Positions 3,661 to 52,687 of a stretch of DNA of 64,000 bases are shown in pieces (the stretch's first letter is position 1; every line of letters begins with the position of its first letter). Position numbers and translations under genes: made by a program. The notes under the pieces were generated by a model, which saw nothing but the letters and a program-made list of their open reading frames with translations, did no database searches and was not told the origin of the DNA. Where the stretch lies: NCBI GenBank assembly GCA_019323515.1, contig JAHWHG010000004.1, forward strand, positions 1,859 through 65,858, written 5' to 3'. This DNA comes from Candidatus Woesearchaeota archaeon. GTDB lineage: Archaea > Nanobdellota > Nanobdellia > Woesearchaeales > JAHWHD01.

Positions 3661-3762
3661 ATATGGTTAGACAAAAGCCTATCTTAAATATTTTTCCAAT
3701 ATTGAATATCGAGAATAAAAATCAAAAGTTTTATAAACAATCGGGCGATTTATTTATATATT

Positions 3763-37100: not shown

Positions 37101-38248
37101 AAATTGATACTGACTTACTAAGAGCTAATGGTGTTCCAGAAAATCTTATACAGGTTTTAGAGCGTGCTTTAGCACAGAATCCTAATGAAAGGCCTGATGC
37201 TGCAAGCCTTAAAGCTGCATTTGAAACAACAACCACCCCAACTGGGTTAGAAGCGATAGTGGAAAAATCTGGTGAGCCAGTAAGTATCGGCAAGGTAATT
37301 GGAGGAAGGTATGATGTACAAACATCGATTGGTGTAGGCGGCTTTGGACAGACGTTCACTGCTGTTGACCAGGAGACAGGAAGGACTGTTGTGATAAAAG
37401 CGTTTGAGCCTAAAACAATGGAGCCAGCTGCAGTTGAACAGATGAAAGAATTGTTCAGAGAAGAAGCAAAAGTTCTTCAAAGACTGTCGCATGATGGAAT
37501 TGTTAAAGTGTTTGACGCTGCTCTTGAGGGAGATAATCCGTATATTGTTGAAGAGCATGTAAACGGTAAAACTTTGGAGTCTATGATCGGTGAAAGTACT
37601 GATCCAATGAGTCTTGAGACTGTGAATGATATTGCAGTTAAGGTTCTGGGGATTGTTGAGTATATGCATCAACAAGGTGTTATCCATAGAGATCTTAATC
37701 CTAATAATATAATAATAACTCCTGATGGAGATGTTAAGATAATCGATTTTGGTTTGGCAGGATTTGATAAAGAGTTTAGGACAAGGCATGGTTCCACTGG
37801 GTTCACTGGTGACTTTAAGTATGGAAGTCCAGAGCAGCTTGACTTAGATGGGTTCATGAAGACAGCTGAGTCTGATCCTGAATATGATGAGAAAGCGATG
37901 GATGCGTATACAATTGGAACTGTCCTCTATAATATGATGACCAAGAATAATCCTTTAGGATTGCCAAGTACTGCCACTTCAATAGGTTTCTTGGGTAAGA
38001 AAGGGGTAGGATATGATGCAGTTAATCCTACTGAATTCAATAAAGACATACCAAATGTGATTGCTGATGTTCTGCAGAGGGCTGTTACAAAGGATTACAA
38101 GCAGCGACCTACTGTTGCAGAGATAAAGAAAGCTTTTGATAATGTTGATGAGGACATTAACGTATTTGGAACAGAGGTTGGAGGAACTCCTAGTATTGCC
38201 ACAATTAATATAATGGAAGAAGCAAGAGCTGCAAGTTCATGCGGTTAA
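25154..38248 (+). CDS. giant (4364 aa) secreted multidomain protein: signal peptide, beta-rich region, TPR/coiled coil, GGDEF-like palm motifs, tandem Ser/Thr protein kinase domains
   Basis: A single uninterrupted ORF. The N-terminal signal is FAIFVVLSLVLSSVSVKA. TPR-like and long heptad regions are present, with a 65-aa tandem repeat at 33482-33817. IDVMDFKNQINTRYGHIVGDNF (about 34735-34800), GGDEV (35588-35602) and RIDINNFGKTNQRYG (35641-35685) are GGDEF-like. Kinase 1 has GKGAVGNV...VAVK...HRDIKPGN...DFG (36440-37220). Kinase 2 has GVGGFGQT...VVIK...HRDLNPNN...DFG (37290-38150). Confidence 0.85.
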   Translation: MNRFEDIWKRGFAIFVVLSLVLSSVSVKAVEPGEEGFDWEKADYEKIDYTKITDINSIPQQYYSKIPWSKFPKEVIVKFSGDARIRELVKVLEVQSKESLKLLTSAQVKNILGEFKDLSILNHAEVAKALVAKGEFPGGAVLNLVPGVVYKDGKLINPKFPNGLGIKSLGSDVTSVSAVVTEIGTEGFIICKGTKCNEVTSAIAGEFTGVSRDKDGNLVIDTTNGPVKLDGNIRAVVDVSGDVVYLTDDGTFIQHKGFSFTARGTTQKTNFKFKGNKLTMEGPGEVSSDGNRVSGKVEGSFTVEIGLTADEFKVTGNKADITVYGKDRYTGDFSNEYKEGKLMMFSLDSYMSSAKIRGHLAITNDDNIKKVYITQNNPNAKTLEQVWHNAAVITTFNEEKLNIDKLKDADVKKYVSDSIEKNKAKIEALKAAKEKAKTDYEKSQIQSKIDYLEVYVKDLEGITTKAALMGVVDNTISRLEADNARIWKTHPNTGYLEVVNSDVNLYGDKKSTDSIPGRLVILPGKSSYGVSELDSRSMSGEQANVYSIYSPPEYSDASGKDLKKRGIMYCASGSTGITGDMCSARAKTSVGLVEIMSGRDSSGNGYSRVSRNSAVKNNVDDAGLIVVGPTSKDARTSMIKLDADGIHAIDSLVGEGKSRVYTNPTIIDKIAENYKKVRDIALGVLRAAGLLREDEKVSEEARKKAQELKQRLAATFVEEFKDIREFVAGELSELEKRMPGVTQKLIDLNTYKVEQNEQGLLSMLAAEKDEQMKDRIRASILDVYKAQGETGKEEAWLKTWEQQAPNSKWLATIKSQRAQQQTLRVDYSKMTNAELEALAETKPTVALYQELTNRYLKDKDYANAQKYADLARTEVTLGLERAEFNLEKAGYSDLFDMTDRMTTVYQTLADVSLANKDNLLAEDASRFNLAINKRNYRAAQTLSAALIAQDKLKDNVAAWESYSNENKDASRLYDRAGVNLIDAYTRIKAYDKVEEKYLDIEVTKNTDIKKEADVAYVRSLNVQSSELLKDKKYDDALAKAKRALQVDKNDKFSLSVMSSVASSYYSSKRYDDSIALLEDLKNRKGSLTESEKVTLAGAYHGKGNIAKAKGLYGEVKDAFEKKGVAKLSNTDKFSYAQALDGLGESDKSYEVWKQLSQITPANDNEKNLKSIAQNVVSQIDTTRGFQAALKGITEKQETVQAYDKVVDGLSSKDALRLANSIAGKADKFTKEADAKAFLKKVGQSNFQVAEARAISREGLDLVKQGLQQVKEGKDVSQALATYNGGLDTLLKATISPDKRKESGGKLDNLREKIQILKRQIADAKESRDKAPSGWFGTKTKEYETYNSLYEARLKDLDAAQKEYLKLRQQILSGANLADKRELIKLQEDLLSELRGQKAQGYLGSAETVRQLEETTDQFIAEVAGQYGFLLERYDQQSSGLWTLIVSEKEKLRDRSYNTYLKQGYTAEQAKDMAEKQAQDYVNVRMKNIGLENADLFQKDLLDAKTKRQQLSLETDNQRREAAAAHAAGGWKIGQYVIVSNRNIDIVKNWWASDGVLTDYTKKAEVGFLGNFGYKVANGVSKTVGLFLEVGLPVAIGSLVANVKDGVLLASGSATTNEQTIQEKNKAVAKNQQIIQGLQYLSKITQETSSADMEALARAVKSKSTTGLTDSQKKLYEKYFTGTEGTKAKESVLLAVTDNRLNNQDFGPGGVLEYASGVNDLTPEEIAKRQALLANAQKTEYFKDARNKLLAGWGLDEKGDYFADSKGNYLSLEAGGRLLGRLINPKETLTQVTHLAWANENLAGVLNFFGTSSNEYEKLKYLNRKGSELAKTTQMVKLLEEGKFKDLSAIYNNEGDVLSPEQHKEYRQLIDLDVNLRTARLVEKYGSYDKIPQSEIQAINRLKVADEVGRYNWEAAKGYAQLTQDPNLVSQVQDTQTYQQTLNRMGETAGFFANMAIFGAATRGLSSLGGKILSSEPAKTLGRIVSKSQTGKKIIDFATKYADDVRLGQMAEQIDDVTNNLVKESWMLKLKNKVVKTIWKNADDAAVQTADDALAQITSLKNQFVNARAAGDVTKANQITQQIARIQADALAKINGQYLGLAKQGAQMLVKSASFEEIKEEAQEELAGDIGKNLKDKLGGSAGVLAEALVIFYNMRKGIVSGTISSADVNLYNNQLKTASNAMLKPFVDTNFQNKVIVFDGNNYDFKTNPDGSITLINSDGVTVKKIDGLLDLQALVREGRVQVPGVVDLNVLVDKAALDIPLNVENARTDAEIDTLRTELLDPGITAERKAEVQARIESLESHKNEIGKSIDAQKSNVDIKQKKQELADAEQQGDLNKIQETTTALREAETARANSLSELHTAQIEGIEARKRAYESKIAETKKTLAGETDAKVQAEIEAKLNSLQALLLDADVEILAAESAKLEAEIDSLRKQSKIASDTEKARLEQEIEQKRKQLLDKSIQQKEAEIEREQAVQQTVADELKKVEGDTTGLFVGSDISGLRALQDATDRLIEQKQEQKETLERQKEFNEKEGNDDVKRQQNELEERKSDFFRDVEDYHALKESEKESEAGKALRAKLENEQKAITVNQLQIDAAVQKSLGTTEPVSEEGRLQKKALEKVESSIKEDQQLDTDEKEAVSELTKLQNEKQKKERQVEYVEGEMAKPDVGDEYELDGKKYKVTNILTIGGKTYYEVQTESGEIRGFTAEKIQAATKISSSLTAKRGVLNTIRIQLENDINNIETQEKTVEENSDTKDAQKEAEKEPEQVTKEKRITDLTAQINELDGKIAEAERNGDFVSLEDQQRLNRLKLERGTLELDLLLGKKLEPTEVEVAKEQQVKALTAQINELGAKIAEAERRGDFVSAEDQQTLERLKTQRAGLELEILLGADFEAAEAVQPELKIGEPAKVTEDAGTLKQQLQQQGVRQDLIDQAGDDIGQLETLLRRAGTPESRAEARQFARRVTPSQMERSRLAELTSEAQRDVGSVLDAISGVSYQRGAVNLDSITLGDIEIKIGYGRSPWLGPIYSEQVDGQWQIQIDTGRLASLFASLDTQQERDLAFKALIAHELGEIAGVENGFLVADDSHVIGAKIAKNVLGELTTDSKQYIKVKQALNNFAWAQSDPINIEGEMTEGIRQRVLSDYHFRNSKLAYDNHLVRIAGGEKATRPIATVYHKVGKTFKVIFEHGNGEVQIATIDVMDFKNQINTRYGHIVGDNFITQIGGALADAMANWDGSDVTTYLNNLLNDNDFKQNIINKVPNQKVEAPLETDTESKGDDRKLKLGEFNFYAGVSERSTVDSIPGAQRLNDQSTVAGKTAELNIGGVDIDLLAEVQNRQPEDVLSADTVSRLTGGSIQGSMTLDALLAQLKTKQGTKVLEFADTNDCCKTKAVPQIFANEYEFFGEKITTADMTELFRQRRRAITEANLEQARQLTEAIWESASLNQEFGGYLDGNDLFKLATNKLLDDRGDRDFAQVFIIGGDEVGIVKSGNGRVTFGRIDINNFGKTNQRYGVEYADALKVQILKIIQRNIEGEINADTAKKINTEILTYVQSTGREFSQELMPSVSIGIINVDSRFNEIDATKLNELADAASERIKAESKARITDTRTTADVVNEGGFFTEAEPDYEVIDKPRPTPITDSLADWMFNFDQQQRLKTPEQKKADALNDLFSDDVWQQSPLQGFLHQTDNQGRTVQQRLESKLQSGETAEDVVADIKAGIFHRFPNDYIPGNIEVLLQGFINDVNDIDVETTIDDLVDKGFTDVTEVGKGAVGNVFKAERAGETVAVKTLQREKATPEAVALFEKEPQVLAQLDHPNVVKAKESGVKDARPYFTQEYVEGEGLDQKVAEAKYQQRPLSVQEVSDVAVQLFDALQYLHDRGIIHRDIKPGNIIVEPDGTIKLIDFGFAGFDQELRERFGLEGIPQVGSAPYDAPEIFNEKRMADRFGITKFDETKVDIYAAAWMVYEMLTLNSPISSGLKADVDYKIDTDLLRANGVPENLIQVLERALAQNPNERPDAASLKAAFETTTTPTGLEAIVEKSGEPVSIGKVIGGRYDVQTSIGVGGFGQTFTAVDQETGRTVVIKAFEPKTMEPAAVEQMKELFREEAKVLQRLSHDGIVKVFDAALEGDNPYIVEEHVNGKTLESMIGESTDPMSLETVNDIAVKVLGIVEYMHQQGVIHRDLNPNNIIITPDGDVKIIDFGLAGFDKEFRTRHGSTGFTGDFKYGSPEQLDLDGFMKTAESDPEYDEKAMDAYTIGTVLYNMMTKNNPLGLPSTATSIGFLGKKGVGYDAVNPTEFNKDIPNVIADVLQRAVTKDYKQRPTVAEIKKAFDNVDEDINVFGTEVGGTPSIATINIMEEARAASSCG

Positions 38249-38892
38249 GAGATTACTCTACGTTCTATGTTAAGCGCAATAGGAACTTCATAGTCAATCA
38301 ATAACTTATGACCAAATGCTTGGAATTTTCTTCTGCCATACATAAAACTTGACATCACATCTTTTCTAAACATTGGTTTTGCTTCTTGAGGTGTCCAGAT
38401 TTGTATCTTGCTTATTCTTCTTTTGATATCAGCGTCAACTGGCAAGCTTTCTATAGCTGAATCTGAGGTTATATCACAGAGGCAGCTTTCATCTGATAAG
38501 ATTTGTTTAAGGTCAACCCAGGAAGAAATTTTGTTAAGGTTAGATGCCTGAAGGTCCAGGTAGGAGATATACTTAAAGAGTTCATTATGGTCACAACCAG
38601 GGTTATATTCCATAAGTTTTGTGTGAAGTTTTTGTATGTAATACTGATATACTGGAAGCTCTCCTGTCTTTTCACAGTAGAGGTCATAAGACAGAATCAC
38701 TTTACTTTCAGGTTCTCCACCAAAGATAACCCTTTCCATTGTTTCACTTAGAACTTCACGGTTCTTTGGGCCTGTGAATGCTTCAATCTTGATGTTTTTA
38801 ACAAAGAACTCTAAGTTATGAATCTTCTTATAGTTCATGATTGAAGCTTTCAAGTCTTCTGCAATTAGTTTAGCCCTTTCAACAATCCCCAT
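38245..38892 (-). CDS. hypothetical protein
   Basis: 215-aa ORF convergent with the giant gene, with a 4-nt stop overlap. No motif recognised. Confidence 0.5.
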   Translation of the reverse strand: MGIVERAKLIAEDLKASIMNYKKIHNLEFFVKNIKIEAFTGPKNREVLSETMERVIFGGEPESKVILSYDLYCEKTGELPVYQYYIQKLHTKLMEYNPGCDHNELFKYISYLDLQASNLNKISSWVDLKQILSDESCLCDITSDSAIESLPVDADIKRRISKIQIWTPQEAKPMFRKDVMSSFMYGRRKFQAFGHKLLIDYEVPIALNIERRVIS

Positions 38893-39087: not shown

Positions 39088-39534
39088 ATGCAAGATTTGA
39101 GTAAGAAAGAGGCAGAAGCATTATTCCAGGAGTTTGTGGAATTTTTGAAAAAGAAGAAGATTTCTGTAAAGGGGTTAGGTGAGTATGCTATTCCCATCTC
39201 TATATTTTCCAAGAAGTTAAGCGCTACAGAAGCTGTTGTCAAGTACTTGCGTGAAGAGCATGAGCTAGGTTACAATAAGATTGCAAAGCTGCTGCATAAG
39301 AATCCTGGGCCTGTTGGTGTAACTTACAGGAATGCTAAAAAAAAGTTTAGAGGAAAGTTAAGTGTTGATTCTGATCATTTTATTCCAATAAATAAGTTTG
39401 ACGGAAAGAATACTGTATTTGAGGTTGTTGTTAAGTTTATGAAAGAGGAGTTAAAGTTTAGTTTCAAAAAAATTGCTAAGTTGATGGGAAGGAATTACAG
39501 GACTGTATGGACTGTGTATAGGAGGGCTGCATGA
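39088..39534 (+). CDS. small DNA-binding protein with two tandem HTH-like repeats
   Basis: Internal duplication: ...LSATEAVVKYLREEHELGYNKIAKLLHKNPGPVGVTYRNAKKKF versus ...TVFEVVVKFMKEELKFSFKKIAKLMGRNYRTVWTVYRRA, a sigma-r4/LuxR-like HTH pattern. The stop overlaps the ATG of the 2387-aa ORF (ATGA). Confidence 0.6.
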   Translation: MQDLSKKEAEALFQEFVEFLKKKKISVKGLGEYAIPISIFSKKLSATEAVVKYLREEHELGYNKIAKLLHKNPGPVGVTYRNAKKKFRGKLSVDSDHFIPINKFDGKNTVFEVVVKFMKEELKFSFKKIAKLMGRNYRTVWTVYRRAA

Positions 39535-42500
39535 AAAAGGTAATCAGTGTGCTATTGATATTTGTATTGTTGCTGAGCAGTGTTAGCGCTGATTGTCTTA
39601 CTCCTTTAGGTAAAGAGAGATTGGTTGAACAGAAGACTCCTGAATTGGTTGAGCAGGGGTTGAGTAAAGAGCAGGCTGATACTTTGTTGAGGAGTGTGGT
39701 TGAAGGACAAAAAGAATTACCTGCTACTGAATTAACTTACCAGCAGAAGATTGATGAGGTTCAAGGATTGATAGATAGAGAAGAGTTTGATGCTGCTGTT
39801 GCAAGATTGAATGAATATGGGATTAGTATTCCAAGATTTGATACTTCTACAGGAGAGGCTTTGGATACTCCTGAGAAGCAAGCAAGAGGGGCATTAAGGT
39901 TAGAAGCTGAGAAGAGGAGGCCTATTGTTGAAAAACAGGTTGATGAAGCAATTGAGAAATTAGCAAGTTCCTCAACTAGTACGCGGATTGAAGGTTCTAA
40001 TGCATTAAAAAGCATTGGAAAAGAAGCTGTACCTAAACTTATTGAAGCTTTAGATAATGATAATCCAGACATAAGGTGGCAAGCTGCAAGATCCTTAGGT
40101 GACATCGGAGATGAAAGAGCAATTCCAAAGTTGATTGAAAAGTTAAGTGACAAAGACACTACTCTGCAAAGTAATGTAATTGTTGCACTTGGAAGACTGA
40201 AAGCTTATGATGCTGTGTATGCACTTAACAAAATCGCTTTTGATAAATATAAAGCGAGTTATCTTAGAAGGAATGCGATAACTGCATTAGGTGAAATAGT
40301 AGGTCCAAGAGCTGACGAAGTAAACAAGAAGTTAGGAGATACAATAGGTGTTTTAACAAAAGCTCTGACTGATAAGGATCCTCAAATACGTGAAGCTGCA
40401 GCAAAGGCTTCTGGGCTAATAGGGAATGCTGATCCATTACAAATCTCAAGATTAATTGGCTTACAACAGGATAAGAATGAATATGTAAGAGATTCTGCAT
40501 CTGAAGCACTTTCTCGGATTAGAGAGAAGATGATAAGCAATATGAATTCAGATGATGCAAAAGTTAGAAGAGCATCGATTGATATTATTGAAGTATTTAA
40601 TGACCCTACGCTTGTGCCTGTTTTAATTGATGCTTTGAATGATGCAGACTCAAATGTAGTTACTTATGCAATGAAAGCTCTAGCCAAGTACAAGGATAAT
40701 AGAGCGGTTTTACCGTTGATAGATAAATTAGATAAGGGGAATGATTTTGAACGTTCTGTAGCTGCTAGAACTCTAGGCCAAATAGGTGGTGCACAAGCTG
40801 TTCCAGCTCTTTCAAATGCATTAAGAGATGCTGATGCGTTTGTAAGAAGAGAGGCAGCTAATGCATTAGGGTTAATAAGAGATAAAAGTGCAAGTAGTAG
40901 TTTGATTGAAGCATTAACTGACACTGATGTAGATGTAAGAGCTAATGTTGTTGAAGCTTTAGGTAGAGTTTTTTATGATTCTCAAGATCAAACTGTATCG
41001 GAAGCATTAGTGCAATCTTTAAGTGATTCAGATGCACGAATAAGGAGAATGTCTGCTGAAGCATTAGGAAGGATTGGTGATACTGAAATAGTCCCTGGCC
41101 TTATTGAAGCAAGAAATGATAATGAGGCGTCTGTTCAAGATGCTGCATTGAAAGCTCTTGCATTATTAGGCAATCAAGATGCAATCAATGAATTTATTCA
41201 GGACTTGAAATCCGACTCCAGTGAAAAACGGATTAATGCTATAAACATCTTAGAGGAAACTGGTAAGGGGATTAATGAGATATTAAATTCTGAAGCTTTA
41301 TTTGAAGATGAAAATACTCAGAGGTATGCAGTCATAGCTGTTATGAGAAATGGTAATGCTAATGATTTGATCAGATTAATGAATATAATTAAAAGCACGA
41401 CTAACCCAAAAACAAAAGCAAATTTAATTGAAGCTATGACAGGCAGTACCATTAGTCAAGCAGATAGGATATTAGGATTAGATAATTTTGAGCAGCTTCC
41501 ACCTTTATTTAAAGAATTTCTGAAAAAAGGCGAGATTCAGGGAGAGGAGATGGGATTAGTTATTGGAAACCTTCCATCAGTAGCTACTGAAGGGATTGAA
41601 AGGTCTAGTCTAGAGTCTAGGATTGAGCAGGAATTAAGCGGTTTAAGTTTCACATCAAGGACTGCAGGTGATAGGAGTTTTGAAGATGATACGTTCACTG
41701 GACAGAAGCATAAATTAAGTTCAAGTGATTTAATCAAGATATTACAAATTGTGCACAGTCTGAAGAATCCTAATTTCAGGAATAGCATCGGAAAGAACAT
41801 TGTCTATGATTTGGAGCATTATGGTAGCGAACTTGGAGGTCTAGCTTTTATCAATGAAGATGGAGAGCTTGAGCTTGAGGATTTTGCTCCAAAATGCAGG
41901 GGAGATAATTGTGCTTATGTGTCTTCAGAGACCAGGAGGCTGAAGGCAAATGAAGCTTTCTTTGACTGGCACCAGCATGCGACTGGAGATGCAAATCCTG
42001 AAAGATATGTTGGGCCAAGTGGGAGTACTGAGGGGGGTGCGGATTTAGGGGTTGCGCGGAGAGATAGACATGACGGTGTGGTAATTGCATATTTAGGGGG
42101 TAATAAGTTTAATCTTCATTTCTACACCCCAGAAGGGTATGTTGTAAATTTGGGCAATTATGAATGGGATAGTGATAATGTAGGTGTTATTGATATAGAT
42201 GCCATACGCGCATATTATGAAGTGGCGCAGAGGGGTTATGATAAGAATCCTGCAGCTGCATCTGAGATTACATCAAGGTCAGAGCTTAGTAGAAAACAAC
42301 AGGCGGATTATCTTAAAGCAGTCGTAGATAGAAATGTGGATGAAGAAGGACTACGGAAAGAGATGGAAAATGACGGGATACCTAATGCTGCTGATGTAGC
42401 CAGAGCTGTGTTTACAGCAGAGGCACCTTCTAAAGCAGAAGAAGCTGCGCTTGCACAAGAATCGCCGCTTCGAGATTTAGTAGGAGATAATCTTCCAATA

Positions 42501-45500
42501 ACTACGCCTGCTTTTGAAAAAATGCCTTCAACTCCTTTGGGGTTTGAACCTTTAGATGTTAGTGATGTCGAACAACCAACAGCTGAGTTTAGAGATAAGA
42601 TATGGGGTGGAGATACATTAGCTATCCCTATAACTTCACCAACTGAATATAGGAAAAATTTAGCTGCGCCTTTAGTTACAGATTCTGAGAATCTTGCTGA
42701 GGGTGGACTGCAGTATAAACCAGGAGATAAAATTACACTTGTAAGATACATAAGAGTTGATAAAGCAACAGCTGAAGCTATCAAAGGTTCTAAGAGAGTC
42801 CTATCACAGGAGGTTGCAAAACAGCAAGGTGATATAAGTAAAGCTGAGGAAGAGTTTAATGCATTAACTGGTAAGGATCTAACATTAGAATCATTGCTGC
42901 AACATACATGGGATATTGGGAGAAGAGGTAATCTTGGAATATCAACAACATATGATCCAGGGATATTATTAGCAGATTCTACAACTGATGACTGCTGCAT
43001 AGTGAAGTATACAATAGAAGTTCCAGCTGAGAGGGTTGTCAAAGTTGGCGGGACTGTTGAGAATCCAGTATTCCCTGCAGGGTTTGACCTTAGAAGAGGT
43101 GATGTGAAGAACTTTGGTTTTGTTAATCCTTCTAACTATGAATCAGAGATTACTTTCTTGTATGAAGTTCCAAATGAGTATGTAAGTAGGATTGATGTTA
43201 TTGAGGATAGTCCTCAGAGTTTAGTTAATATGATTGAGAGTGATGCTTTTGTCACAGAGCATAAACTGCAGCAGATAAAAAAATCTTCATTGTTCAGCTC
43301 TCAACAAAAATCTGAACTAGAGAGTATCCAGGATCCTGTTGAGAGGTTAATGAGAGCAAGGGAGATGTTATTGGGAAGGGCTGAAGTACCTGCAGACCTT
43401 GAAGAAAGAGTTAACCAGAGATTAGAAAGATATGGCCAGCCAGTCACTGAAACAGTGAGGCAGAATGAACTGCAGCAGGAACAGATGATTGACGAGATTG
43501 CCAAAGAGATAGAAAGTTTATGTGAAGGGATATGCGGGAAGCCGATAATAATCGAAGGCGGAGCAGGTCTGTCAACAGATTATCTGCCAGGAGTAAGTGA
43601 TAGGGATATTTCAATATTTGTTGACGGCTTGACATTGGAACAGAAAGCAAATCTTGATAACATAATAAACAGGCTTAGATTAAAGTATCCTGGTGAACAG
43701 GTTAGTTTCTTCATATATAATACTGATTTACTTAAAGGAGGAACTGAGCAAACAATTGCAAGTTCTGAAGAGCCTTATCCTTTAGCAAGAAACTGGATAT
43801 GGGCAAACACGTTCAGGACAGCTAGAGTTTTGTACGGGCAAGCTGAGTTTGACAGGATTGCTGCTGCACCTTTATCAGAGTTAAGCCAGAAGGTTCCTCT
43901 GAATGCTGAGGACGGAGAGAGTTATAGAATTGGGATGACTGAGAGTTTTATTGAGAAGTTAAAGGCTTACAGAGAGCAAGGACTGCAAGTGGATCTGCAT
44001 AAGACAGCTAAGGCAGGGTTAAGGGCTGTTCTTGGGAGAGTTATGAGAGATAATTTTGATGTTGTTAAAGGTGCTTTAGGTGCTCCTGATGCTTCTACTA
44101 AGTCTGAGACTAATTTTATCCTTGATGTTGCAAGGAATTCTGGACTTTTCAATGAACAGGAGATGGATTTAATTAGAAAGATGGCTGACCTGAGATTAAA
44201 TCCACAGAGAGGGATTACAAATGCTGAGGTAGATGTTTTAGAGGATTTTGTGTTTAAGCAGGCTTTAGTCACAGAAAGACCAACTATTGAAGTAACACAA
44301 GACATAAAAGATTTCTGGGCTAATGCAGATGAAAATCAATTCAGAGCTAACTGGCAAGACCTTCCAGCTGATGCAATGGAGGAAGCAATCAAGAATCCTG
44401 AGAGGAGGGTTGATATTTTATTGGAGTATTATCCTGCAAGCCAGATTATGATGGGAGGGACTGTTGCGCCTTCACAATCTTTAGCTGATCAACAGTTCTC
44501 GGAACAGGTAGAGCACATAATCGAAGCTGCAACTAGGAGTAGCCGGATTAATGATATCCATGTGCATCTAAGTCAAGCATTGCCTGTGGAGATGTTAAAG
44601 GATATTATGGATGTGGTTCTGCAAGGAGATGAGTGGAGTCAAAATGAAAAAGACGAAGCAGTTAAGAAATTTGCTGCATATTTAGGTAGGCAGTGGAAGT
44701 CTGCATATGAAGAGATATGGTTTGGTAGCATTCAGCAGCAATCTGAGGAGATTCAGAGGAGATTGGAGAATATTCTACAATCTCTTTCTAAACTAGAACA
44801 GGGTTATGATCAAAGTGTGTGGAATAATTTTTGGACTGAAATTCAGCTTCTATTACCCTTGTTAGATTTATCATCTATGGAAAATTATCAACAAAGGAAC
44901 GACGAAATGGTAAATCGGTTATATATTGCAGCAAATGACCAATTCAAAGCAGGAACAAAAAATATAGCAGGGGATATTATCCCAAGGATAGCATCAAGAG
45001 CCAAGGGTTATTTTGAAATTAGGCATGCTATTCAAGGAACAGACCCGAAAGATTTAGATAATATGCTAAAAAGATTCTCTGATGCTGATATTTCAGAAGA
45101 TGAAGCGGGCTTTATCCTGTCATTCACAAGGCGTAGTATTGGCAGCTTAAAGGGAAAGAGCATACCATTGGTTTCAATAATGGCAAGACTTGAGTCGCTT
45201 GATCAGATTAGCGCTTTACTAGAGCAAGTTACATCGAAGAATGATTTAATGGGAATTTACAGAGTACTTTCATATGCGCAGAGGGATAGTGATACAGAAA
45301 AAGCGATTGAGCAGATGACGGATGACTCCCAGGAGATTGAAAGGCTTAAAGGGATGATAAGAAACAAACAAATAAATCGGATAGAGAACAATCAAGCTAG
45401 TAAGAAAAAGATTAATGATTTTTTGGAACGTTTCAATAAATATTTTGTAGGAATTGATATCACTGGTCATGAGGAATTTCCTTTTGCAGGCTATGATGGT

Positions 45501-46694
45501 GTTTATGATATTAGCCAAGATTTAGATGTGTTAGAAGCTTTAGAAAACAATGATAAAATTGGAACAACTGTACATGCAGGTGAAAACTTCAGAAGAAGAA
45601 GTATTGAAAGTGCAATAAGGCAAGTATATCAAGTAGCTGAACATGCAGATAGAATTGGACATGGATTGGCAGCAGTTGTTGATTTGGAAAGTATTGTAGA
45701 ATCCGATCAAGAAATCGAAGATAAGCTTATTGATCCAAAGGAGATAGTAGAAACCAGCACATCTGGAATAACAAGTTTCTCTGTTGAAAATATATTTGAA
45801 AGCGGTCATAGGTTTGAGAGTTTGGACCAAAGATTGAAACAGCTTGAATTTGAAAAATCGCACATTAATGAAATGAATCATTATTATTCAAATGAAGGTG
45901 TTCAACAATTAAATACTGAAGATATAGATAATGAGATTGTTGTACTGAACAAGATTATTGAAGCTTCAAAAAGAATCACATCTGATGATATTACTGATGA
46001 ATCAAGACGGATGAAAGATGAAGTGAAGCAAGCTCTTTCAGGAAGGGAAGAACTAATGCCACTGATTGATAAAATTATGGGAGAGCCTCCTACTTTTAAA
46101 ATACAGAGAATAAGTAAAGATGGTATTATCACAAGGTCGTTGTTGCTGAAGCGTCCATATATTACCGAAGATAACGAACTAGATATCGATGCAAAGAAAA
46201 GGATAGATGCTCTGCAAAAGATGACAATAGATAAGATGATTGAGAACGAGGTTGTACTTGAACTAAACCCTTCTTCAAATGATGAGATACATAAAGTGGG
46301 TTGGTTGCATTATGGGAGATTATTTACATACACATATTCAGGTACCAAGCCAGAATTTCAGGGAAAAAAATTAAGAGTTACAATTAATACTGATACTGAG
46401 GCAACTTTAGAAAGTACAATTGAAGATGAACATCGCGAAGTATTGAGAAATCTCTTAAGATCATATGATTCTAGAATAGATAAGTTAAGAGCAGAATTGG
46501 CGCAAACAAAAGATGGTAGTGAAAGACAACTCGCTATTAGACATGAAATTGTAATGTTGGAAAATCAACAGGACATAATTGCATCGGCTCTTAGAGATGA
46601 ACCAGAAGCCATCATAGATTTCATAATGCCATCCTCTTCAGCAATAGCATTAAGTCCTGCAAAAAGGGGTATGATAGAATCAGCTACATCTTAA
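39531..46694 (+). CDS. giant (2387 aa) secreted multidomain protein: signal peptide, HEAT (PBS-lyase type) repeats, JAB-like HxH motif, minimal nucleotidyltransferase motif, adenosine/AMP-deaminase-family domain
   Basis: Signal VISVLLIFVLLLSSVSADC. More than 10 HEAT_PBS repeats (DPDIRWQAARSLGDIGDERAIPKLIEKLSD...) span about 39990-41280. WHQHATGD...GPSGSTEGGAD lies at about 41965-42040. GGAGLSTDYLPGVSDRDISIFV (43552-43620) fits a pol-beta NTase. The ADA motifs are DIHVHL (44553-44570), TVHAGE (45567-45584), DRIGHG (45648-45665), LELNPSSN (46258-46281) and INTDTE (46382-46399). Confidence 0.85.
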   Translation: MKKVISVLLIFVLLLSSVSADCLTPLGKERLVEQKTPELVEQGLSKEQADTLLRSVVEGQKELPATELTYQQKIDEVQGLIDREEFDAAVARLNEYGISIPRFDTSTGEALDTPEKQARGALRLEAEKRRPIVEKQVDEAIEKLASSSTSTRIEGSNALKSIGKEAVPKLIEALDNDNPDIRWQAARSLGDIGDERAIPKLIEKLSDKDTTLQSNVIVALGRLKAYDAVYALNKIAFDKYKASYLRRNAITALGEIVGPRADEVNKKLGDTIGVLTKALTDKDPQIREAAAKASGLIGNADPLQISRLIGLQQDKNEYVRDSASEALSRIREKMISNMNSDDAKVRRASIDIIEVFNDPTLVPVLIDALNDADSNVVTYAMKALAKYKDNRAVLPLIDKLDKGNDFERSVAARTLGQIGGAQAVPALSNALRDADAFVRREAANALGLIRDKSASSSLIEALTDTDVDVRANVVEALGRVFYDSQDQTVSEALVQSLSDSDARIRRMSAEALGRIGDTEIVPGLIEARNDNEASVQDAALKALALLGNQDAINEFIQDLKSDSSEKRINAINILEETGKGINEILNSEALFEDENTQRYAVIAVMRNGNANDLIRLMNIIKSTTNPKTKANLIEAMTGSTISQADRILGLDNFEQLPPLFKEFLKKGEIQGEEMGLVIGNLPSVATEGIERSSLESRIEQELSGLSFTSRTAGDRSFEDDTFTGQKHKLSSSDLIKILQIVHSLKNPNFRNSIGKNIVYDLEHYGSELGGLAFINEDGELELEDFAPKCRGDNCAYVSSETRRLKANEAFFDWHQHATGDANPERYVGPSGSTEGGADLGVARRDRHDGVVIAYLGGNKFNLHFYTPEGYVVNLGNYEWDSDNVGVIDIDAIRAYYEVAQRGYDKNPAAASEITSRSELSRKQQADYLKAVVDRNVDEEGLRKEMENDGIPNAADVARAVFTAEAPSKAEEAALAQESPLRDLVGDNLPITTPAFEKMPSTPLGFEPLDVSDVEQPTAEFRDKIWGGDTLAIPITSPTEYRKNLAAPLVTDSENLAEGGLQYKPGDKITLVRYIRVDKATAEAIKGSKRVLSQEVAKQQGDISKAEEEFNALTGKDLTLESLLQHTWDIGRRGNLGISTTYDPGILLADSTTDDCCIVKYTIEVPAERVVKVGGTVENPVFPAGFDLRRGDVKNFGFVNPSNYESEITFLYEVPNEYVSRIDVIEDSPQSLVNMIESDAFVTEHKLQQIKKSSLFSSQQKSELESIQDPVERLMRAREMLLGRAEVPADLEERVNQRLERYGQPVTETVRQNELQQEQMIDEIAKEIESLCEGICGKPIIIEGGAGLSTDYLPGVSDRDISIFVDGLTLEQKANLDNIINRLRLKYPGEQVSFFIYNTDLLKGGTEQTIASSEEPYPLARNWIWANTFRTARVLYGQAEFDRIAAAPLSELSQKVPLNAEDGESYRIGMTESFIEKLKAYREQGLQVDLHKTAKAGLRAVLGRVMRDNFDVVKGALGAPDASTKSETNFILDVARNSGLFNEQEMDLIRKMADLRLNPQRGITNAEVDVLEDFVFKQALVTERPTIEVTQDIKDFWANADENQFRANWQDLPADAMEEAIKNPERRVDILLEYYPASQIMMGGTVAPSQSLADQQFSEQVEHIIEAATRSSRINDIHVHLSQALPVEMLKDIMDVVLQGDEWSQNEKDEAVKKFAAYLGRQWKSAYEEIWFGSIQQQSEEIQRRLENILQSLSKLEQGYDQSVWNNFWTEIQLLLPLLDLSSMENYQQRNDEMVNRLYIAANDQFKAGTKNIAGDIIPRIASRAKGYFEIRHAIQGTDPKDLDNMLKRFSDADISEDEAGFILSFTRRSIGSLKGKSIPLVSIMARLESLDQISALLEQVTSKNDLMGIYRVLSYAQRDSDTEKAIEQMTDDSQEIERLKGMIRNKQINRIENNQASKKKINDFLERFNKYFVGIDITGHEEFPFAGYDGVYDISQDLDVLEALENNDKIGTTVHAGENFRRRSIESAIRQVYQVAEHADRIGHGLAAVVDLESIVESDQEIEDKLIDPKEIVETSTSGITSFSVENIFESGHRFESLDQRLKQLEFEKSHINEMNHYYSNEGVQQLNTEDIDNEIVVLNKIIEASKRITSDDITDESRRMKDEVKQALSGREELMPLIDKIMGEPPTFKIQRISKDGIITRSLLLKRPYITEDNELDIDAKKRIDALQKMTIDKMIENEVVLELNPSSNDEIHKVGWLHYGRLFTYTYSGTKPEFQGKKLRVTINTDTEATLESTIEDEHREVLRNLLRSYDSRIDKLRAELAQTKDGSERQLAIRHEIVMLENQQDIIASALRDEPEAIIDFIMPSSSAIALSPAKRGMIESATS

Positions 46695-47139
46695 TAACAT
46701 ACTTCTTAATCCTTGGGTCATCCTTTGATACATATCTTGGTTCTGCTTGTAATGCCCAACTTGTAAAAACTGAGTTATGTACACCCCTATGCGTAATCCA
46801 ATACTTTGCGAATGTTTCAGGGCTATGGTCACAATAAGAATTAATTATATTATTCTCGTGGCTATTTGTATACTCTTTTATTAATGCCTCCAAATCAGGT
46901 TCTATTAATTGTTCTGATTCAAATAGAACATGTTCACAGGCAACATTAACAACCCTATCGCCTGATTCTGATTTATCATATCTACAGAAGCCTCCATTAA
47001 TCTTTAGTTTATGATATTGGCCTGCAAATTTTCCCTCATGATAGATAATCAATATATTTTTCTGTTTAGAACTATATTGTTTAACATATTCCCAACCTTC
47101 TTGTTTTCTTGGCACTAGCTTTGCCCAGATATCTTCCAT
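46684..47139 (-). CDS. hypothetical protein
   Basis: 151-aa ORF convergent with the giant gene, with an 11-nt overlap. No motif recognised. Confidence 0.5.
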   Translation of the reverse strand: MEDIWAKLVPRKQEGWEYVKQYSSKQKNILIIYHEGKFAGQYHKLKINGGFCRYDKSESGDRVVNVACEHVLFESEQLIEPDLEALIKEYTNSHENNIINSYCDHSPETFAKYWITHRGVHNSVFTSWALQAEPRYVSKDDPRIKKYVIKM

Positions 47140-51931: not shown

Positions 51932-52027
51932 GCCTCTGTAGCATAGTAGCTATTGCGATGGCCTTGTATGCGTTATAATAACGTAGAAGTAAGCCATAGG
52001 TCGGGGGTGCAAATCCCCCCAGAGGCT
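51932..52027 (+). tRNA. tRNA-Thr(UGU) with 23-nt canonical (37/38) intron
   Basis: Acceptor GCCTCTG/CAGAGGC; anticodon stem ATGGC/GCCAT; loop CTTGTA|intron 51969-51991|A; T-arm GGGGG-TGCAAAT-CCCCC; discriminator T. The D-loop lacks GG and the T-loop reads TGC rather than TTC, which is unusual. Confidence 0.75.
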
Positions 52028-52063
52028 TATTACATATTTGTAACTGAAATAGGGTGTTATAAG

Positions 52064-52687
52064 ATGAAGATAATATTTCTAGGGAAACCTGGTTCTGGGA
52101 AAGGAACACAAGCAAAAAAGTTAGCTAACCATCTGAAGATTCCGCATATTTCTACAGGTCAGATGTTCAGGTTTGCATATCAGGACAAGACCACATTAGG
52201 GATAAAGGCACATGACGAGTATTGGGGCAAGGGTAAACTTGTGCCTGATGATATAACAAATAAACTTATTGAAGAAAGGTTAATTAAGTGCAAGAATGGA
52301 TTTATACTTGATGGATATCCCAGGACAGTTAACCAGGCAGAGTTCTTGAAAAAACTAGGACATGAGATTGATTTAGTGATTGACCTTGATGTTCCTGATG
52401 AAGTTGTTATAGATAGGATTTCAGGTAGAAGGACATGTCCAAGATGTGGCACGAATTATAATATATTGACATCTCCAAAGCCGAAACAAGAGGGGATGTG
52501 CGATAAATGTAATGTTGAACTTTACCAGAGAGATGATCAGAAGCCTGAGGTTGTAAAAATAAGGTTAAAAGAGTATAAAGATTTGACAAAGCCACTTAAA
52601 GAGTTCTATAAAGATAAGATTAAATTGGTTGATGGAAACAAAGACATTGATTCAATATTCAAGGATATTCTTAAGCTTGTGAAATGA
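52064..52687 (+). CDS. adk: adenylate kinase (long, Zn-lid type)
   Basis: The start is moved to the ATG at 52064; the tracked start overlaps the tRNA. P-loop FLGKPGSGKGTQ, LDGYPRT, and lid CPRCGTNYN...CDKCN. Confidence 0.9.
   Translation: MKIIFLGKPGSGKGTQAKKLANHLKIPHISTGQMFRFAYQDKTTLGIKAHDEYWGKGKLVPDDITNKLIEERLIKCKNGFILDGYPRTVNQAEFLKKLGHEIDLVIDLDVPDEVVIDRISGRRTCPRCGTNYNILTSPKPKQEGMCDKCNVELYQRDDQKPEVVKIRLKEYKDLTKPLKEFYKDKIKLVDGNKDIDSIFKDILKLVK

What the first reader, a model, noticed from the sequence alone, without database searches (positions are those of the whole stretch)
44530..46420. Complete but expanded adenosine-deaminase catalytic motif set (HxH, HAGE, DRIGHG, NTD) with one substituted Asp
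The motifs appear in canonical order: INDIHVHLSQ (44547-44576), TVHAGENF (45567-45590), HADRIGHGLA (45642-45671), VVLELNPSSNDE (46252-46287, compare the CP(T/S)SN strand) and RVTINTDTEA (46373-46402). About 330 aa separate HxH from HAGE, whereas classical ADA has about 180, which implies large insertions.

The NTDD pair reads NTDT. The Zn-ligand Asp is kept, but the neighbouring Asp that contacts the purine in classical ADA is Thr. That could mean a different substrate (nucleotide rather than nucleoside).

Established knowledge: enlarged ADA-family enzymes act as ATP/dATP deaminases in the RADAR (RdrB) and Cad1 antiviral systems.
Basis: partly seen in the sequence, partly recalled or inferred. 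Interest (0 to 1): 0.65.

Follow-up and report, generated by a model that had tools for sequence, protein, structure and literature searches.

The report
Expanded RdrB-like deaminase domain, archaeal giant protein
The motifs are real: they form a very divergent, enlarged adenosine-deaminase-type domain at the end of a 2387-residue, apparently exported protein of a Woesearchaeota (DPANN) archaeon. The domain resembles the ATP-deaminating RdrB enzyme of the RADAR phage-defence system but sits in a completely different context.

Summary
All five motifs lie in one frame of a single 2387-aa ORF (39531-46694, +), in canonical order.

The domain (aa ~1660-2340) matches Pfam PF00962 above its cut-off. 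It keeps every residue that is invariant in a 43-sequence alignment: four Zn ligands, the catalytic Glu and the catalytic His. About 320 extra residues sit in three places. The largest block (+178 aa) follows the GHG histidine, where RdrB has its "insertion 3".

Profiles link the domain to RdrB and RdrB-like proteins, not to housekeeping Add or AMP deaminase. It is nearly an orphan: 12 weak relatives among 1.84 billion representatives.

It is not RADAR (no RdrA) and not Cad1 (no CARF). It is fused behind a signal-like N-terminus, HEAT repeats and about 1000 aa of unassignable sequence, on an ordinary archaeal chromosome.

NTDD reads NTDT, which is unique among the relatives examined. The ribose-binding Asp19 position is Ser. 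The ATP-specific TaqCad1 also replaces both positions, with Asn and Gly.

Best reading: a Zn-dependent adenine-nucleotide deaminase module of a new architectural variant. Activity and substrate are untested.

The parts
39531..46694 (+). Single 2387-aa ORF that contains the finding. It is identical to MBW3015066.1, 'HEAT repeat domain-containing protein [Candidatus Woesearchaeota archaeon]'.
   Evidence: ORF list, translation, exact look-up.
39531..39596 (+). N-terminal signal-like hydrophobic segment, MKKVISVLLIFVLLLSSVSADC. It is the only hydrophobic stretch in the protein.
   Evidence: Kyte-Doolittle scan. Reading it as a Sec signal or anchor is an inference; no predictor was run.
39966..41270 (+). 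HEAT / PBS-lyase-type repeat array, aa ~146-580.
   Evidence: Pfam HEAT_2 E 1.5e-65, HEAT and HEAT_PBS; CpcE/NblB-like NCBIfam matches far below their cut-offs.
41391..44483 (+). About 1000 aa (aa ~621-1651) with no assignable family. NTase-like, ART-like and JAB-like motifs were read by eye only.
   Evidence: No significant or relevant Pfam match and no credible PDB match (best PDB hit E 0.17 to an unrelated DUF507 protein), and no homologues. The single-sequence AF2 model of aa 1300-1600 has pLDDT 46, and Foldseek found nothing significant.
44508..46550 (+). Expanded adenosine-deaminase-superfamily domain, aa ~1660-2340.
44559..44567 (+). H1677-V-H1679: the first two Zn ligands (mouse ADA H15/H17). 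S1681, two residues further on, is at the Asp19 position.
   Evidence: Invariant columns in A2 and in the 43-sequence alignment.
44577..45440 (+). N-terminal half of the barrel. It carries two expansions, +68 aa between HxH and strand 2 and +76 aa between strand 2 and strand 4. This is the region of RdrB 'insertion 2'.
   Evidence: Anchor-to-anchor distances against E. coli Add; AF2 secondary structure; PMC9994260.
45456..45473 (+). D1976-ITGH-E1981, the counterpart of the classical 'DLAGDE' strand-4 motif. D and E are invariant.
45573..45584 (+). H2015-A-G-E2018: the third Zn ligand and the catalytic Glu (mouse ADA H214/E217).
   Evidence: Pfam alignment region; invariant columns.
45657..45665 (+). 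G2043-H2044-G: the catalytic His (mouse ADA H238; RdrB H530).
   Evidence: PMC9994260.
45684..46214 (+). Helical insertion of ~178 aa after the GHG histidine (aa ~2052-2228), at the position of RdrB 'insertion 3'.
   Evidence: Profile alignments run through it in one stretch (for P0006, 38, 59). AF2 predicts long helices, at low confidence.
46260..46280 (+). E2244-LNPSS-N2250, the strand-7 motif (classical 'E.C(L/P)TSN').
   Evidence: Invariant E and N; hhalign of the query alone.
46386..46397 (+). N2286-T-D2288-T2289. D2288 is the fourth Zn ligand (mouse ADA D295). T2289 replaces the N7-binding Asp296.
   Evidence: The role of Asp296 is taken from PMC6451127 and PMC12669630.
39088..39534 (+). 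148-aa HTH protein gene. Its stop overlaps the start of the giant gene (ATGA), and an AGGAGG lies ~10 nt upstream, so the two are probably co-expressed.
   Evidence: Sequence; Pfam Sigma70_r4_2 at 27.2 bits.

Best explanation
The finding is the C-terminal ~680 residues of a 2387-aa protein of a Woesearchaeota (DPANN) archaeon.

**What it is.** It is a zinc-dependent hydrolytic purine deaminase domain of the adenosine/AMP-deaminase (amidohydrolase, TIM-barrel) superfamily. It belongs to the enlarged branch that includes RdrB of RADAR.

**Proposed mechanism (inferred).**
- H1677, H1679, H2015 and D2288 would hold the Zn that activates water.
- E2018 and H2044 would act as the proton shuttles.
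- The two residues that classical ADA uses to grip adenosine are both replaced: Asp19 (ribose) by S1681 and Asp296 (N7) by T2289. The ATP-specific Cad1 also replaces both.
- The most likely substrate is therefore an adenine nucleotide, for example ATP or dATP converted to ITP or dITP, rather than free adenosine.

**The insertions (inferred).** The extra ~320 residues are helical. The largest block sits where RdrB carries the insertion that builds its oligomer, so self-assembly or regulation is the likely role.

**Context.** The domain is not part of a RADAR or Cad1 system. It is one module of a signal-peptide-bearing giant HEAT-repeat protein, probably acting outside the cell or on a host cell.

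**Shown versus inferred.** Homology, motif conservation, insertion positions and genomic context are shown. Metal binding, activity, substrate, oligomerisation and export are inferred.
For: **Family assignment.**
- PF00962 scores above its gathering cut-off.
- The weak NCBIfam matches in this domain are to adenosine-deaminase models plus RdrB. PADLOC matches only the ADA part of CARF_ADA.
- An exhaustive HMMER search of 1.84e9 representatives returned 12 non-self hits. The 11 retrieved and read (P0008 was checked separately) are expanded ADA proteins, and no housekeeping Add was among them.

**Link to RdrB.**
- The clade profile without any RdrB-like sequence has RdrB structures 8fnw/8fnv as its best PDB matches (E 6e-16). 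The match is one stretch through the post-GHG insertion.
- hhalign against RdrB-like proteins gives probability 100%, E 5e-41, over 376 columns. The query alone gives 98.3%, E 1.4e-14.

**Spacing.** HxH to HAGE and GHG to NTD are 338 and 244 aa in the query. They are about 344 and 215 in E. coli RdrB, and 185 and 57 in E. coli Add.

**Catalytic residues.** Every column that is 100% conserved in 43 sequences and reliably aligned is kept in the query (see the Against line for the one exception).

**Structure.** The AF2 model shows eight strands in barrel order. Its best Foldseek hits are RdrB (E 6e-5), then ADAs and Cad1.

**Precedent for the substitutions.** TaqCad1 converts ATP to ITP and has no adenosine activity. 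It carries Asn at Asp296 and Gly at Asp19. No member of the expanded clade keeps Asp19.

**Context.**
- The window carries archaeal housekeeping genes: L10P/P0, GatD/GatE, CDC48 and TruD.
- GC content is uniform across the window.
- The protein has one N-terminal hydrophobic segment.
- The closest relatives are also large multidomain proteins, and four of the seven checked have a similar N-terminus.
Against: - No biochemical data exist for this domain.
- Thr at the Asp296 position is unique among about 40 relatives.
- Asp296-to-Ala abolishes measurable activity in the nucleotide deaminase AtMAPDA. Asp296-to-Asn cripples mouse ADA (cited).
- The domain is only 15-22% identical to anything else and sits on a long branch. 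Loss or change of function therefore cannot be excluded.
- One column that is 100% Phe in the other 42 sequences reads Met1783 in the query. It lies in the poorly aligned insertion-2 region. An earlier alignment puts a query Phe there instead, so this is probably an alignment artefact, but that was not checked further.
- The AF2 model has low confidence (mean pLDDT 54.9; TM 0.26-0.29 to RdrB). The superposition of the ligands on a metal site could not be inspected.
- Homology of the N-terminal insertions to RdrB insertion 2 is not shown. The hhalign alignment starts at strand 2.
- Export is inferred from hydrophobicity alone.
Confidence: 0.55

Rival explanations
1. Pseudo-enzyme or ligand-binding module. 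The barrel is kept as a nucleotide sensor or scaffold inside the giant protein, and catalysis has been lost through Asp296-to-Thr and other changes.
For: - T2289 is unique among the relatives.
- D296A is inactive in AtMAPDA.
- Several clade-conserved positions near the active site differ in the query: HAGE-D to N2019, G to A2028, G to V2049.
- The sequence is an orphan on a long branch.
Against: - All four metal ligands, the catalytic Glu and the catalytic His are intact. So are the other invariant residues (D1976, E1981, T2013, E2244, N2250). This holds although overall identity is below 22%, a pattern expected under selection for catalysis.
- Cad1 is active with a non-Asp residue at this position.
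Confidence: 0.2
2. An active deaminase with a different substrate from ATP/dATP. Candidates are adenosine or adenine for extracellular purine salvage, N6-methyl-AMP, a cyclic or oligo-adenylate, or an N7-modified or 7-deaza purine.
For: - The N7-contacting residue is changed in a unique way.
- The protein appears to be exported, and free ATP is scarce outside cells.
- Relatives are fused to cNMP-binding domains and kinases.
- Secreted ADA2-type enzymes exist, although 3lgd is only a weak match.
Against: - The ribose-binding Asp19, which is needed for nucleoside binding in classical ADA, is absent (S1681), as it is in RdrB and Cad1.
- The nearest characterised relatives, RdrB and Cad1, are ATP/dATP deaminases.
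Confidence: 0.17
3. The effector of an antiviral defence system of the RADAR or Cad1 type.
For: - The nearest named relatives are RdrB and CARF-ADA.
- The HEAT region matches PADLOC candidate models such as HEAT-ARM_XIII.
Against: - No RdrA-type ATPase, CARF domain or cas protein was found in the protein or in the ten neighbouring ORFs scanned.
- A control RdrB-like gene in Eubacterium does have an RdrA-like gene directly upstream.
- A signal-like N-terminus is not expected of a cytoplasmic abortive-infection enzyme.
- The neighbours are housekeeping genes.
Confidence: 0.06
4. The housekeeping adenosine or AMP deaminase of purine salvage, merely annotated inside a long ORF.
For: Weak matches to Add models: TIGR01430 at 31 bits and PRK09358 at 37 bits.
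Against: - These scores are far below the cut-offs of 216-530 bits.
- There is no AMP-deaminase match.
- The domain carries about 320 extra residues.
- It is fused in frame within a 2387-aa ORF.
- No housekeeping Add appears among the hits of the exhaustive search.
Confidence: 0.02

Closest known systems
RdrB, the adenosine deaminase of the RADAR anti-phage system (PDB 8fnw, 8fnv, 8hr7; NCBIfam NF041744)
   Same: - Same superfamily and the same catalytic residues.
- A similarly enlarged barrel: HxH to HAGE ~340 aa and GHG to the Zn-binding Asp ~215-245 aa.
- A large helical insertion directly after the GHG histidine.
- The Asp19 position is not Asp.
- RdrB is the best solved-structure match by profile and by Foldseek.
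   Different: - Only 16 bits on the RdrB model, against a cut-off of 800.
- No RdrA partner was found.
- No counterpart of the RdrB N-terminal extension aligns.
- It is a C-terminal module of a giant, signal-bearing HEAT protein rather than a free-standing ~800-aa protein.
- NTDT in place of (S/T)DD.
- Archaeal rather than bacterial.
A clade of ADA domains with intermediate spacing, found in large multidomain proteins (P0002, P0004, P0007, P0008, P0009, P0011). Sources named for three: Omnitrophota (P0002, P0008) and Woesearchaeota (P0009). Uncharacterised.
   Same: - These are the best sequence hits of the query (E 1e-8 to 1e-4).
- They share motifs inside the post-GHG insertion: E..(S/D)(E/Q)RL.Q and (L/M)PLI.
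- They are embedded in long multidomain proteins, often with a signal-like N-terminus.
- The Asp19 position is Gly, and the Asp296 position is Asn in several of them, the same pair as in TaqCad1.
   Different: - 18-22% identity to the query.
- Shorter N-terminal expansion (HxH to HAGE ~256-269 aa against 338).
- Different partner domains: RIO kinase, cNMP-binding, metallo-beta-lactamase and HATPase rather than HEAT.
Cad1 / CAAD, the CARF-fused adenosine deaminase of type III CRISPR (PDB 9c67, 9ebt, 8z3k)
   Same: - ADA-superfamily ATP deaminase in which both the Asp296 and Asp19 positions are substituted.
- Weak PADLOC CARF_ADA match to the ADA part, 31 bits.
   Different: - No CARF domain, and no cas genes among the neighbouring ORFs scanned.
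- Cad1 matches the clade profile in two stretches rather than one, so it appears to lack the long post-GHG insertion.
- It is a much weaker profile match than RdrB.
Classical adenosine deaminase (E. coli Add, mouse ADA; PF00962, TIGR01430)
   Same: The (beta/alpha)8 metal-dependent deaminase motif set in the same order.
   Different: - About 320 fewer residues.
- Keeps Asp19 and Asp296.
- The query scores 31 bits against a cut-off of 216.

Membership tests
Adenosine/AMP deaminase superfamily (PF00962, amidohydrolase fold) | Significant match to the family profile | tested here: met
   PF00962 scores 36.6 bits (32.9 in the full-length protein) against a gathering score of 27. Only profile positions 97-225 of 330 are covered.
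Adenosine/AMP deaminase superfamily (PF00962, amidohydrolase fold) | Four Zn ligands (HxH, the His of HAGE, the Asp of NTD) plus the catalytic Glu and His, in canonical order | tested here: met
   H1677, H1679, H2015, D2288, E2018 and H2044 fall in columns that are invariant in the 17- and 43-sequence alignments, which include classical ADAs.
Adenosine/AMP deaminase superfamily (PF00962, amidohydrolase fold) | Second Asp of the (N/S)(T/S)DD motif (mouse ADA Asp296, contacts N7) | tested here: not met
   T2289. The column is D in 90% of 42 relatives and N in a few. Active members with Asn exist, such as TaqCad1.
Adenosine/AMP deaminase superfamily (PF00962, amidohydrolase fold) | (beta/alpha)8 barrel with the ligands converging on one metal site | tested here: inconclusive
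   AF2 predicts eight strands in the expected order, but mean pLDDT is 54.9. The top Foldseek hits are RdrB and ADAs, with TM only 0.26-0.29. Coordinates could not be inspected.
RdrB (RADAR) | Score at or above the NCBIfam NF041744 equivalog cut-off (800 bits) | tested here: not met
   16.2 bits, over 26 residues only.
RdrB (RADAR) | Large insertion after the last catalytic His (insertion 3) and an enlarged N-terminal half (insertion 2) | tested here: met
   +178 aa after GHG and +68/+76 aa before strand 4. Profile alignments to RdrB and RdrB-like proteins run through insertion 3 in one stretch. Sequence homology of the N-terminal expansions is not shown.
RdrB (RADAR) | Adjacent RdrA AAA+ ATPase gene | tested here: not met
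   No RdrA match in the protein or in the ten neighbouring ORFs scanned. A control RdrB-like locus, L008, has an RdrA-like gene upstream.
RdrB (RADAR) | Dodecameric shell; ATP/dATP deamination on phage infection | not testable with these tools
   Needs biochemistry or cryo-EM.
Cad1 / CARF-ADA | N-terminal CARF domain fused to the ADA domain | tested here: not met
   The PADLOC CARF_ADA match covers only profile positions 393-479 of 605, the ADA part. No CARF Pfam match was found.
Cad1 / CARF-ADA | Association with a type III CRISPR-Cas locus | tested here: not met
   No cas-related match among the ten neighbouring ORFs scanned. Rfam found no CRISPR repeat family in the window. The whole window was not scanned gene by gene.
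Housekeeping adenosine deaminase Add (TIGR01430 / PRK09358) | Score at or above the equivalog cut-off, and normal size (~330 aa) | tested here: not met
   31-37 bits against cut-offs of 216-530. The domain is about 680 aa.
AMP deaminase (PF19326 / TIGR01429) | Match to the family profile | tested here: not met
   No match, even at E up to 10.

The most novel reading that the evidence does not exclude
The domain may be an exported, host-directed adenine-nucleotide deaminase. On this reading, a host-dependent DPANN archaeon uses an RdrB-type ATP/dATP-to-ITP/dITP enzyme offensively, or to remodel the partner's purine pool, as one warhead of a giant secreted multi-enzyme protein. The related ADA domains in giant, signal-bearing proteins (Omnitrophota and Woesearchaeota where the source is named) would then form a previously unrecognised class of effectors that share ancestry with the RADAR defence enzyme.
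Probability: 0.15. Interest if true: 0.8.

Novelty: new variant of a known kind. Interest (0 to 1): 0.5.

Why it matters
Enlarged ADA-fold enzymes are so far known as bacterial immune effectors that poison the nucleotide pool (RdrB, Cad1).

Here the same enlarged barrel turns up in an archaeon. It has no defence partners. It is fused to HEAT repeats and about 1000 aa of unknown sequence behind a signal-like N-terminus, next to a second giant exported protein that carries two kinases.

If the domain is active, ATP/dATP deamination is also used outside immunity. In that case it is used by ultra-small, host-dependent organisms whose giant proteins are almost entirely uncharacterised.

The unique Asp-to-Thr change at the N7 contact, combined with loss of the ribose-binding Asp, is also a natural experiment on what sets base and nucleotide specificity in this superfamily.

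Tried and rejected
**Searches that found nothing useful.**
- Word-indexed homologue searches with the C-terminal 788 aa and with aa 1000-1650 returned nothing.
- The same search with the clade alignment returned only 7 proteins.
- Single-sequence phmmer against PDB found nothing for the ADA region or for aa 621-1200. For aa 1201-1650 it returned only one insignificant hit, E 0.17, to an unrelated DUF507 protein.

**Structure prediction.**
- AF2 of the ADA domain with a 17-sequence alignment gave a low-confidence model (pLDDT 54.9). The metal site therefore could not be modelled, and the Foldseek TM-scores are poor.
- I read three motifs by eye in the middle of the protein:
  - nucleotidyltransferase-like: GGAGLS..GVSDRDISIF;
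  - ADP-ribosyltransferase-like: R / STT / ExE;
  - JAB-like: HQH.
- None could be substantiated. There are no Pfam hits even at E 10. The single-sequence AF2 model has pLDDT 46. Foldseek gave nothing below E 0.1, with a few nucleotidyltransferases at E about 1. I do not claim these domains.

**Phylogeny.** A neighbour-joining tree on 467 columns puts the query on a long branch at the base of the expanded clades. At 18-21% identity to every group this is not reliable, and I do not use it.

**Rejected readings.**
- Housekeeping Add or AMP deaminase: scores and size rule it out.
- RADAR or Cad1 membership: the partner proteins or domains are absent.
- Recent horizontal acquisition: GC content is uniform at 0.35-0.41.

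**Not informative.** The bacterial promoter/terminator scan does not apply to an archaeon.
Full report
**1. The observation**

The region lies inside one very long ORF, window 39531..46694 on the + strand, 2387 aa.
- INDIHVHLSQ, aa 1673-1682
- TVHAGENF, aa 2013-2020
- HADRIGHGLA, aa 2038-2047
- VVLELNPSSNDE, aa 2241-2252
- RVTINTDTEA, aa 2282-2291

Three nucleotide ranges are exactly as given. The last two are shifted by one base (46251-46286 and 46374-46403).

The spacing claim holds. HxH to HAGE is 338 residues, against 185 in E. coli Add, whose sequence I took from MG1655.

The motif set is not a chance pattern:
- Pfam PF00962 (A_deaminase) scores 36.6 bits, E 3.7e-9, above its gathering score of 27.
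- The query alone matches an RdrB-like profile with hhalign probability 98.3%, E 1.4e-14, over the NPSSN/NTD part.
- The HVH at 1677-1679 is the only HxH in the last 1500 residues.

**2. Where the extra sequence is**

I used seven conserved anchors to compare the query with E. coli Add.

| Interval | Extra residues in the query |
|---|---|
| HxH to strand 2 (E.R) | +68 |
| Strand 2 to the D..G.E strand | +76 |
| GHG histidine to the E.NPSSN strand | +178 |
| All other intervals | within 9 |

The enlargement is therefore three discrete insertions, about 320 aa in total.

AF2 predicts eight strands in barrel order and long helices in the insertions. Confidence is low: mean pLDDT 54.9, pTM 0.57.

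**3. What it is related to**

The domain is almost an orphan.
- Word-indexed searches found nothing.
- An exhaustive HMMER scan of 1.84 billion cluster representatives found 12 non-self hits at E below 1e-3. The best was 1e-8.

The 11 hits I retrieved and read are enlarged ADA proteins, and no ordinary Add was among them. The twelfth, P0008, shows the same enlarged domain. They fall into two groups:
- **RdrB-like proteins** of ~550-920 aa. They match the NCBIfam RdrB model at E 1e-39 to 1e-57, though below the equivalog cut-off.
- **An intermediate clade** (P0002, P0004, P0007, P0008, P0009, P0011). HxH to HAGE is ~256-269 aa and GHG to NTD is ~181-190 aa.

Spacings compare as follows.

| Protein | HxH to HAGE | GHG to NTD |
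|---|---|---|
| Query | 338 | 244 |
| RdrB-like hits | 341-419 | 203-220 |
| E. coli RdrB (H154, H498, H530; PMC9994260) | ~344 | ~215 |
| E. coli Add | 185 | 57 |

A profile of the query plus the intermediate clade, with no RdrB-like sequence in it, still has the RdrB structures 8fnw/8fnv as its best PDB matches (E 6e-16). That match is one stretch from before HAGE to the C-terminus, running through the post-GHG insertion. Classical ADAs match only the C-terminal ~100 residues.

Profile-profile comparison with nine RdrB-like proteins gives probability 100%, E 5e-41, over 376 columns.

Foldseek with the weak model also ranks RdrB first (E 6e-5), then ADAs and Cad1. The TM-scores of 0.26-0.29 are too poor to carry weight.

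According to the RADAR structure paper, RdrB has three additions:
- an N-terminal extension (insertion 1);
- insertion 2, which divides the core;
- insertion 3, after the last catalytic histidine. Insertions 1 and 2 build the two-fold interface and insertion 3 the three-fold interface of a dodecamer.

The query shares the position of insertion 3 and detectable sequence similarity across it. It shares only the position of the N-terminal expansions.

**4. Catalytic residues**

I aligned 43 sequences: the query, both expanded groups, relatives recovered from GTDB genomes and three classical ADAs. The query keeps 13 columns that are 100% conserved: H1677, H1679, D1976, E1981, T2013, H2015, G2017, E2018, G2043, H2044, E2244, N2250 and D2288.

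One further fully conserved column, a Phe, reads Met1783 in the query. It lies in the poorly aligned insertion-2 region. An earlier alignment places a query Phe there, so I treat it as a probable alignment artefact.

Two functionally important positions deviate.
- **The Asp296 position.** It is D in 90% of relatives and N in a few, such as P0002, P0004 and P0011. It is T only in the query.
- **The Asp19 position.** In the query it is S1681. No member of the expanded clades keeps Asp there: they have G, A, K, F or N.

The literature bears directly on this.
- In the nucleotide deaminase AtMAPDA, Asp296 makes two hydrogen bonds to N7, and D296A has no measurable activity (PMC6451127).
- In TaqCad1 both positions are naturally replaced, by Asn549 and Gly264. 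The enzyme deaminates ATP but not adenosine, and both residues contact ATP (PMC12669630).
- E. coli RdrB, also an ATP/dATP deaminase, keeps DD.

A non-Asp residue here is therefore compatible with nucleotide deamination, but it is not a signature of it. Thr itself has no precedent among the sequences I examined.

**5. Context**

The exact protein is in public data as MBW3015066.1, 'HEAT repeat domain-containing protein [Candidatus Woesearchaeota archaeon]'. It occurs on a contig of 209.7 kb and on five others.

The window is ordinary archaeal chromosome:
- ribosomal protein L10P/P0, GatD and GatE, CDC48, TruD and a YchF-type GTPase;
- a 96-nt tRNA seen by Rfam but not by ARAGORN;
- uniform GC of 0.35-0.41.

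The protein has these parts:
- a single hydrophobic segment, MKKVISVLLIFVLLLSSVSADC, the only one in the protein;
- HEAT/PBS-type repeats at aa ~146-580;
- about 1000 residues with no detectable family;
- the ADA domain.

The neighbouring genes:
- A 148-aa HTH gene ends in the start codon of the giant gene (ATGA) and has an AGGAGG just upstream.
- A 215-aa orphan ORF lies on the opposite strand between that gene and the next giant ORF.
- Upstream of these is a 4364-aa ORF with a similar N-terminus and two Ser/Thr kinase domains.

I found no RdrA-type ATPase, CARF domain or cas protein in the giant protein or in the ten surrounding ORFs scanned. As a control, an RdrB-like gene in Eubacterium sp. 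14-2 (L008) has an RdrA-like gene immediately upstream.

The intermediate-clade relatives are also long multidomain proteins:
- P0002 carries a RIO-type kinase;
- P0007 carries cNMP-binding domains and a metallo-beta-lactamase domain;
- P0008 (7365 aa) carries cNMP-binding domains and a HATPase domain.

Four of the seven checked start with a signal-like segment. Named sources are Omnitrophota for P0002 and P0008 and Woesearchaeota for P0009.

**6. Interpretation**

The best-supported reading is a Zn-dependent purine deaminase module of the enlarged, RdrB-related branch of the ADA superfamily, in a new architectural setting.
- I think it is more likely active than dead. The full metal and proton-shuttle set survives at below 22% overall identity.
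- I think it is more likely to act on an adenine nucleotide than on adenosine. Both adenosine-gripping aspartates are gone, as in Cad1, and the characterised relatives are ATP/dATP deaminases.
- The post-GHG insertion probably mediates assembly or regulation, by analogy with RdrB.
- Because the protein appears to be exported and belongs to a host-dependent lineage, the enzyme may act on a partner cell or on extracellular purines.

All of these functional statements are inferences. Section 5 and the alignments are what is actually shown.

The rivals are a pseudo-enzyme or sensor, a different substrate, a defence effector and a housekeeping Add. They are weighed in the structured fields. The last two are poorly supported.

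**7. Verdict**

- ADA family, large insertions and kinship with RdrB-type enzymes: yes.
- Membership of RADAR or Cad1: no.
- The link between the substitution and the substrate: plausible, with a precedent in Cad1, but untested.

Novelty is a new variant of a known kind. Interest is moderate (0.5). The domain family and chemistry are known. The archaeal, non-defence, giant exported-protein context and the unique Thr are not.

Noticed in passing
window 25154-38248 (+): A 4364-aa ORF with a signal-like N-terminus, long coiled-coil-looking stretches, a short GGDEF-like match (aa 3188-3231, 30 bits) and two Ser/Thr protein-kinase domains at the C-terminus (aa ~3755-4033 and 4047-4332). It is a second giant, apparently exported multidomain protein, two genes upstream of the one studied.
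   Followed up: partly
window 51932-52027 (+): Rfam finds a tRNA (55.8 bits, 96 nt) that ARAGORN did not report. It is probably an intron-containing archaeal tRNA. It overlaps the listed TTG start of the adenylate-kinase-like ORF at 51953-52687, whose real start is probably further downstream.
   Followed up: no
window 39088-39534 (+): A 148-aa protein with a sigma-70 region-4-like HTH that looks internally duplicated. Its stop codon overlaps the start codon of the giant gene (ATGA), with an AGGAGG ~10 nt upstream. It may be a dedicated regulator or a co-translated partner.
   Followed up: partly
window 41391-44483 (+), aa ~621-1651 of the giant protein: About 1000 aa without any family match. 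By eye it contains three motifs: a nucleotidyltransferase-like motif (GGAGLSTDYLPGVSDRDISIF), an R / STT / ExE pattern reminiscent of ADP-ribosyltransferases (YIRVD, GISTTYD, NYESEITF), and an HQH...D motif. None could be confirmed.
   Followed up: partly
window 46684-47139 (-) and 38245-38892 (-): Two orphan ORFs on the opposite strand flank the giant gene's neighbourhood. One (151 aa) overlaps the 3' end of the giant gene by 11 nt. The other (215 aa) lies between the two giant genes. Neither has a family match.
   Followed up: no
L008 3205-8999 (Eubacterium sp. 14-2, NZ_KE159568.1): A diverged RADAR-like gene pair. A 990-aa protein matches RdrA only weakly (30 bits). It is followed directly by a 936-aa RdrB-like protein (189 bits, far below the 800-bit equivalog cut-off). 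Many similar RdrB-like genes occur in Lachnospiraceae and Bacteroidales MAGs (L004-L033).
   Followed up: partly
L010 5103-16838 (Omnitrophota MAG; P0008, 7365 aa) and L007 (P0002): Giant Omnitrophota proteins with a signal-like N-terminus combine an expanded ADA domain with cNMP-binding and HATPase domains (P0008) or a RIO-type kinase (P0002). P0007, whose source is not named, combines it with cNMP-binding and metallo-beta-lactamase domains. Several of these ADA domains carry the same Asp19-to-Gly and Asp296-to-Asn pair as the ATP-specific TaqCad1.
   Followed up: partly
L009 6390-8981 (Woesearchaeota MAG JAFGRK010000005.1; P0009/P0021): A second Woesearchaeota protein (754-863 aa, depending on the start chosen) has an expanded ADA domain of the intermediate type. 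It keeps NTDD and has no signal-like N-terminus. Its neighbours have no family matches.
   Followed up: partly
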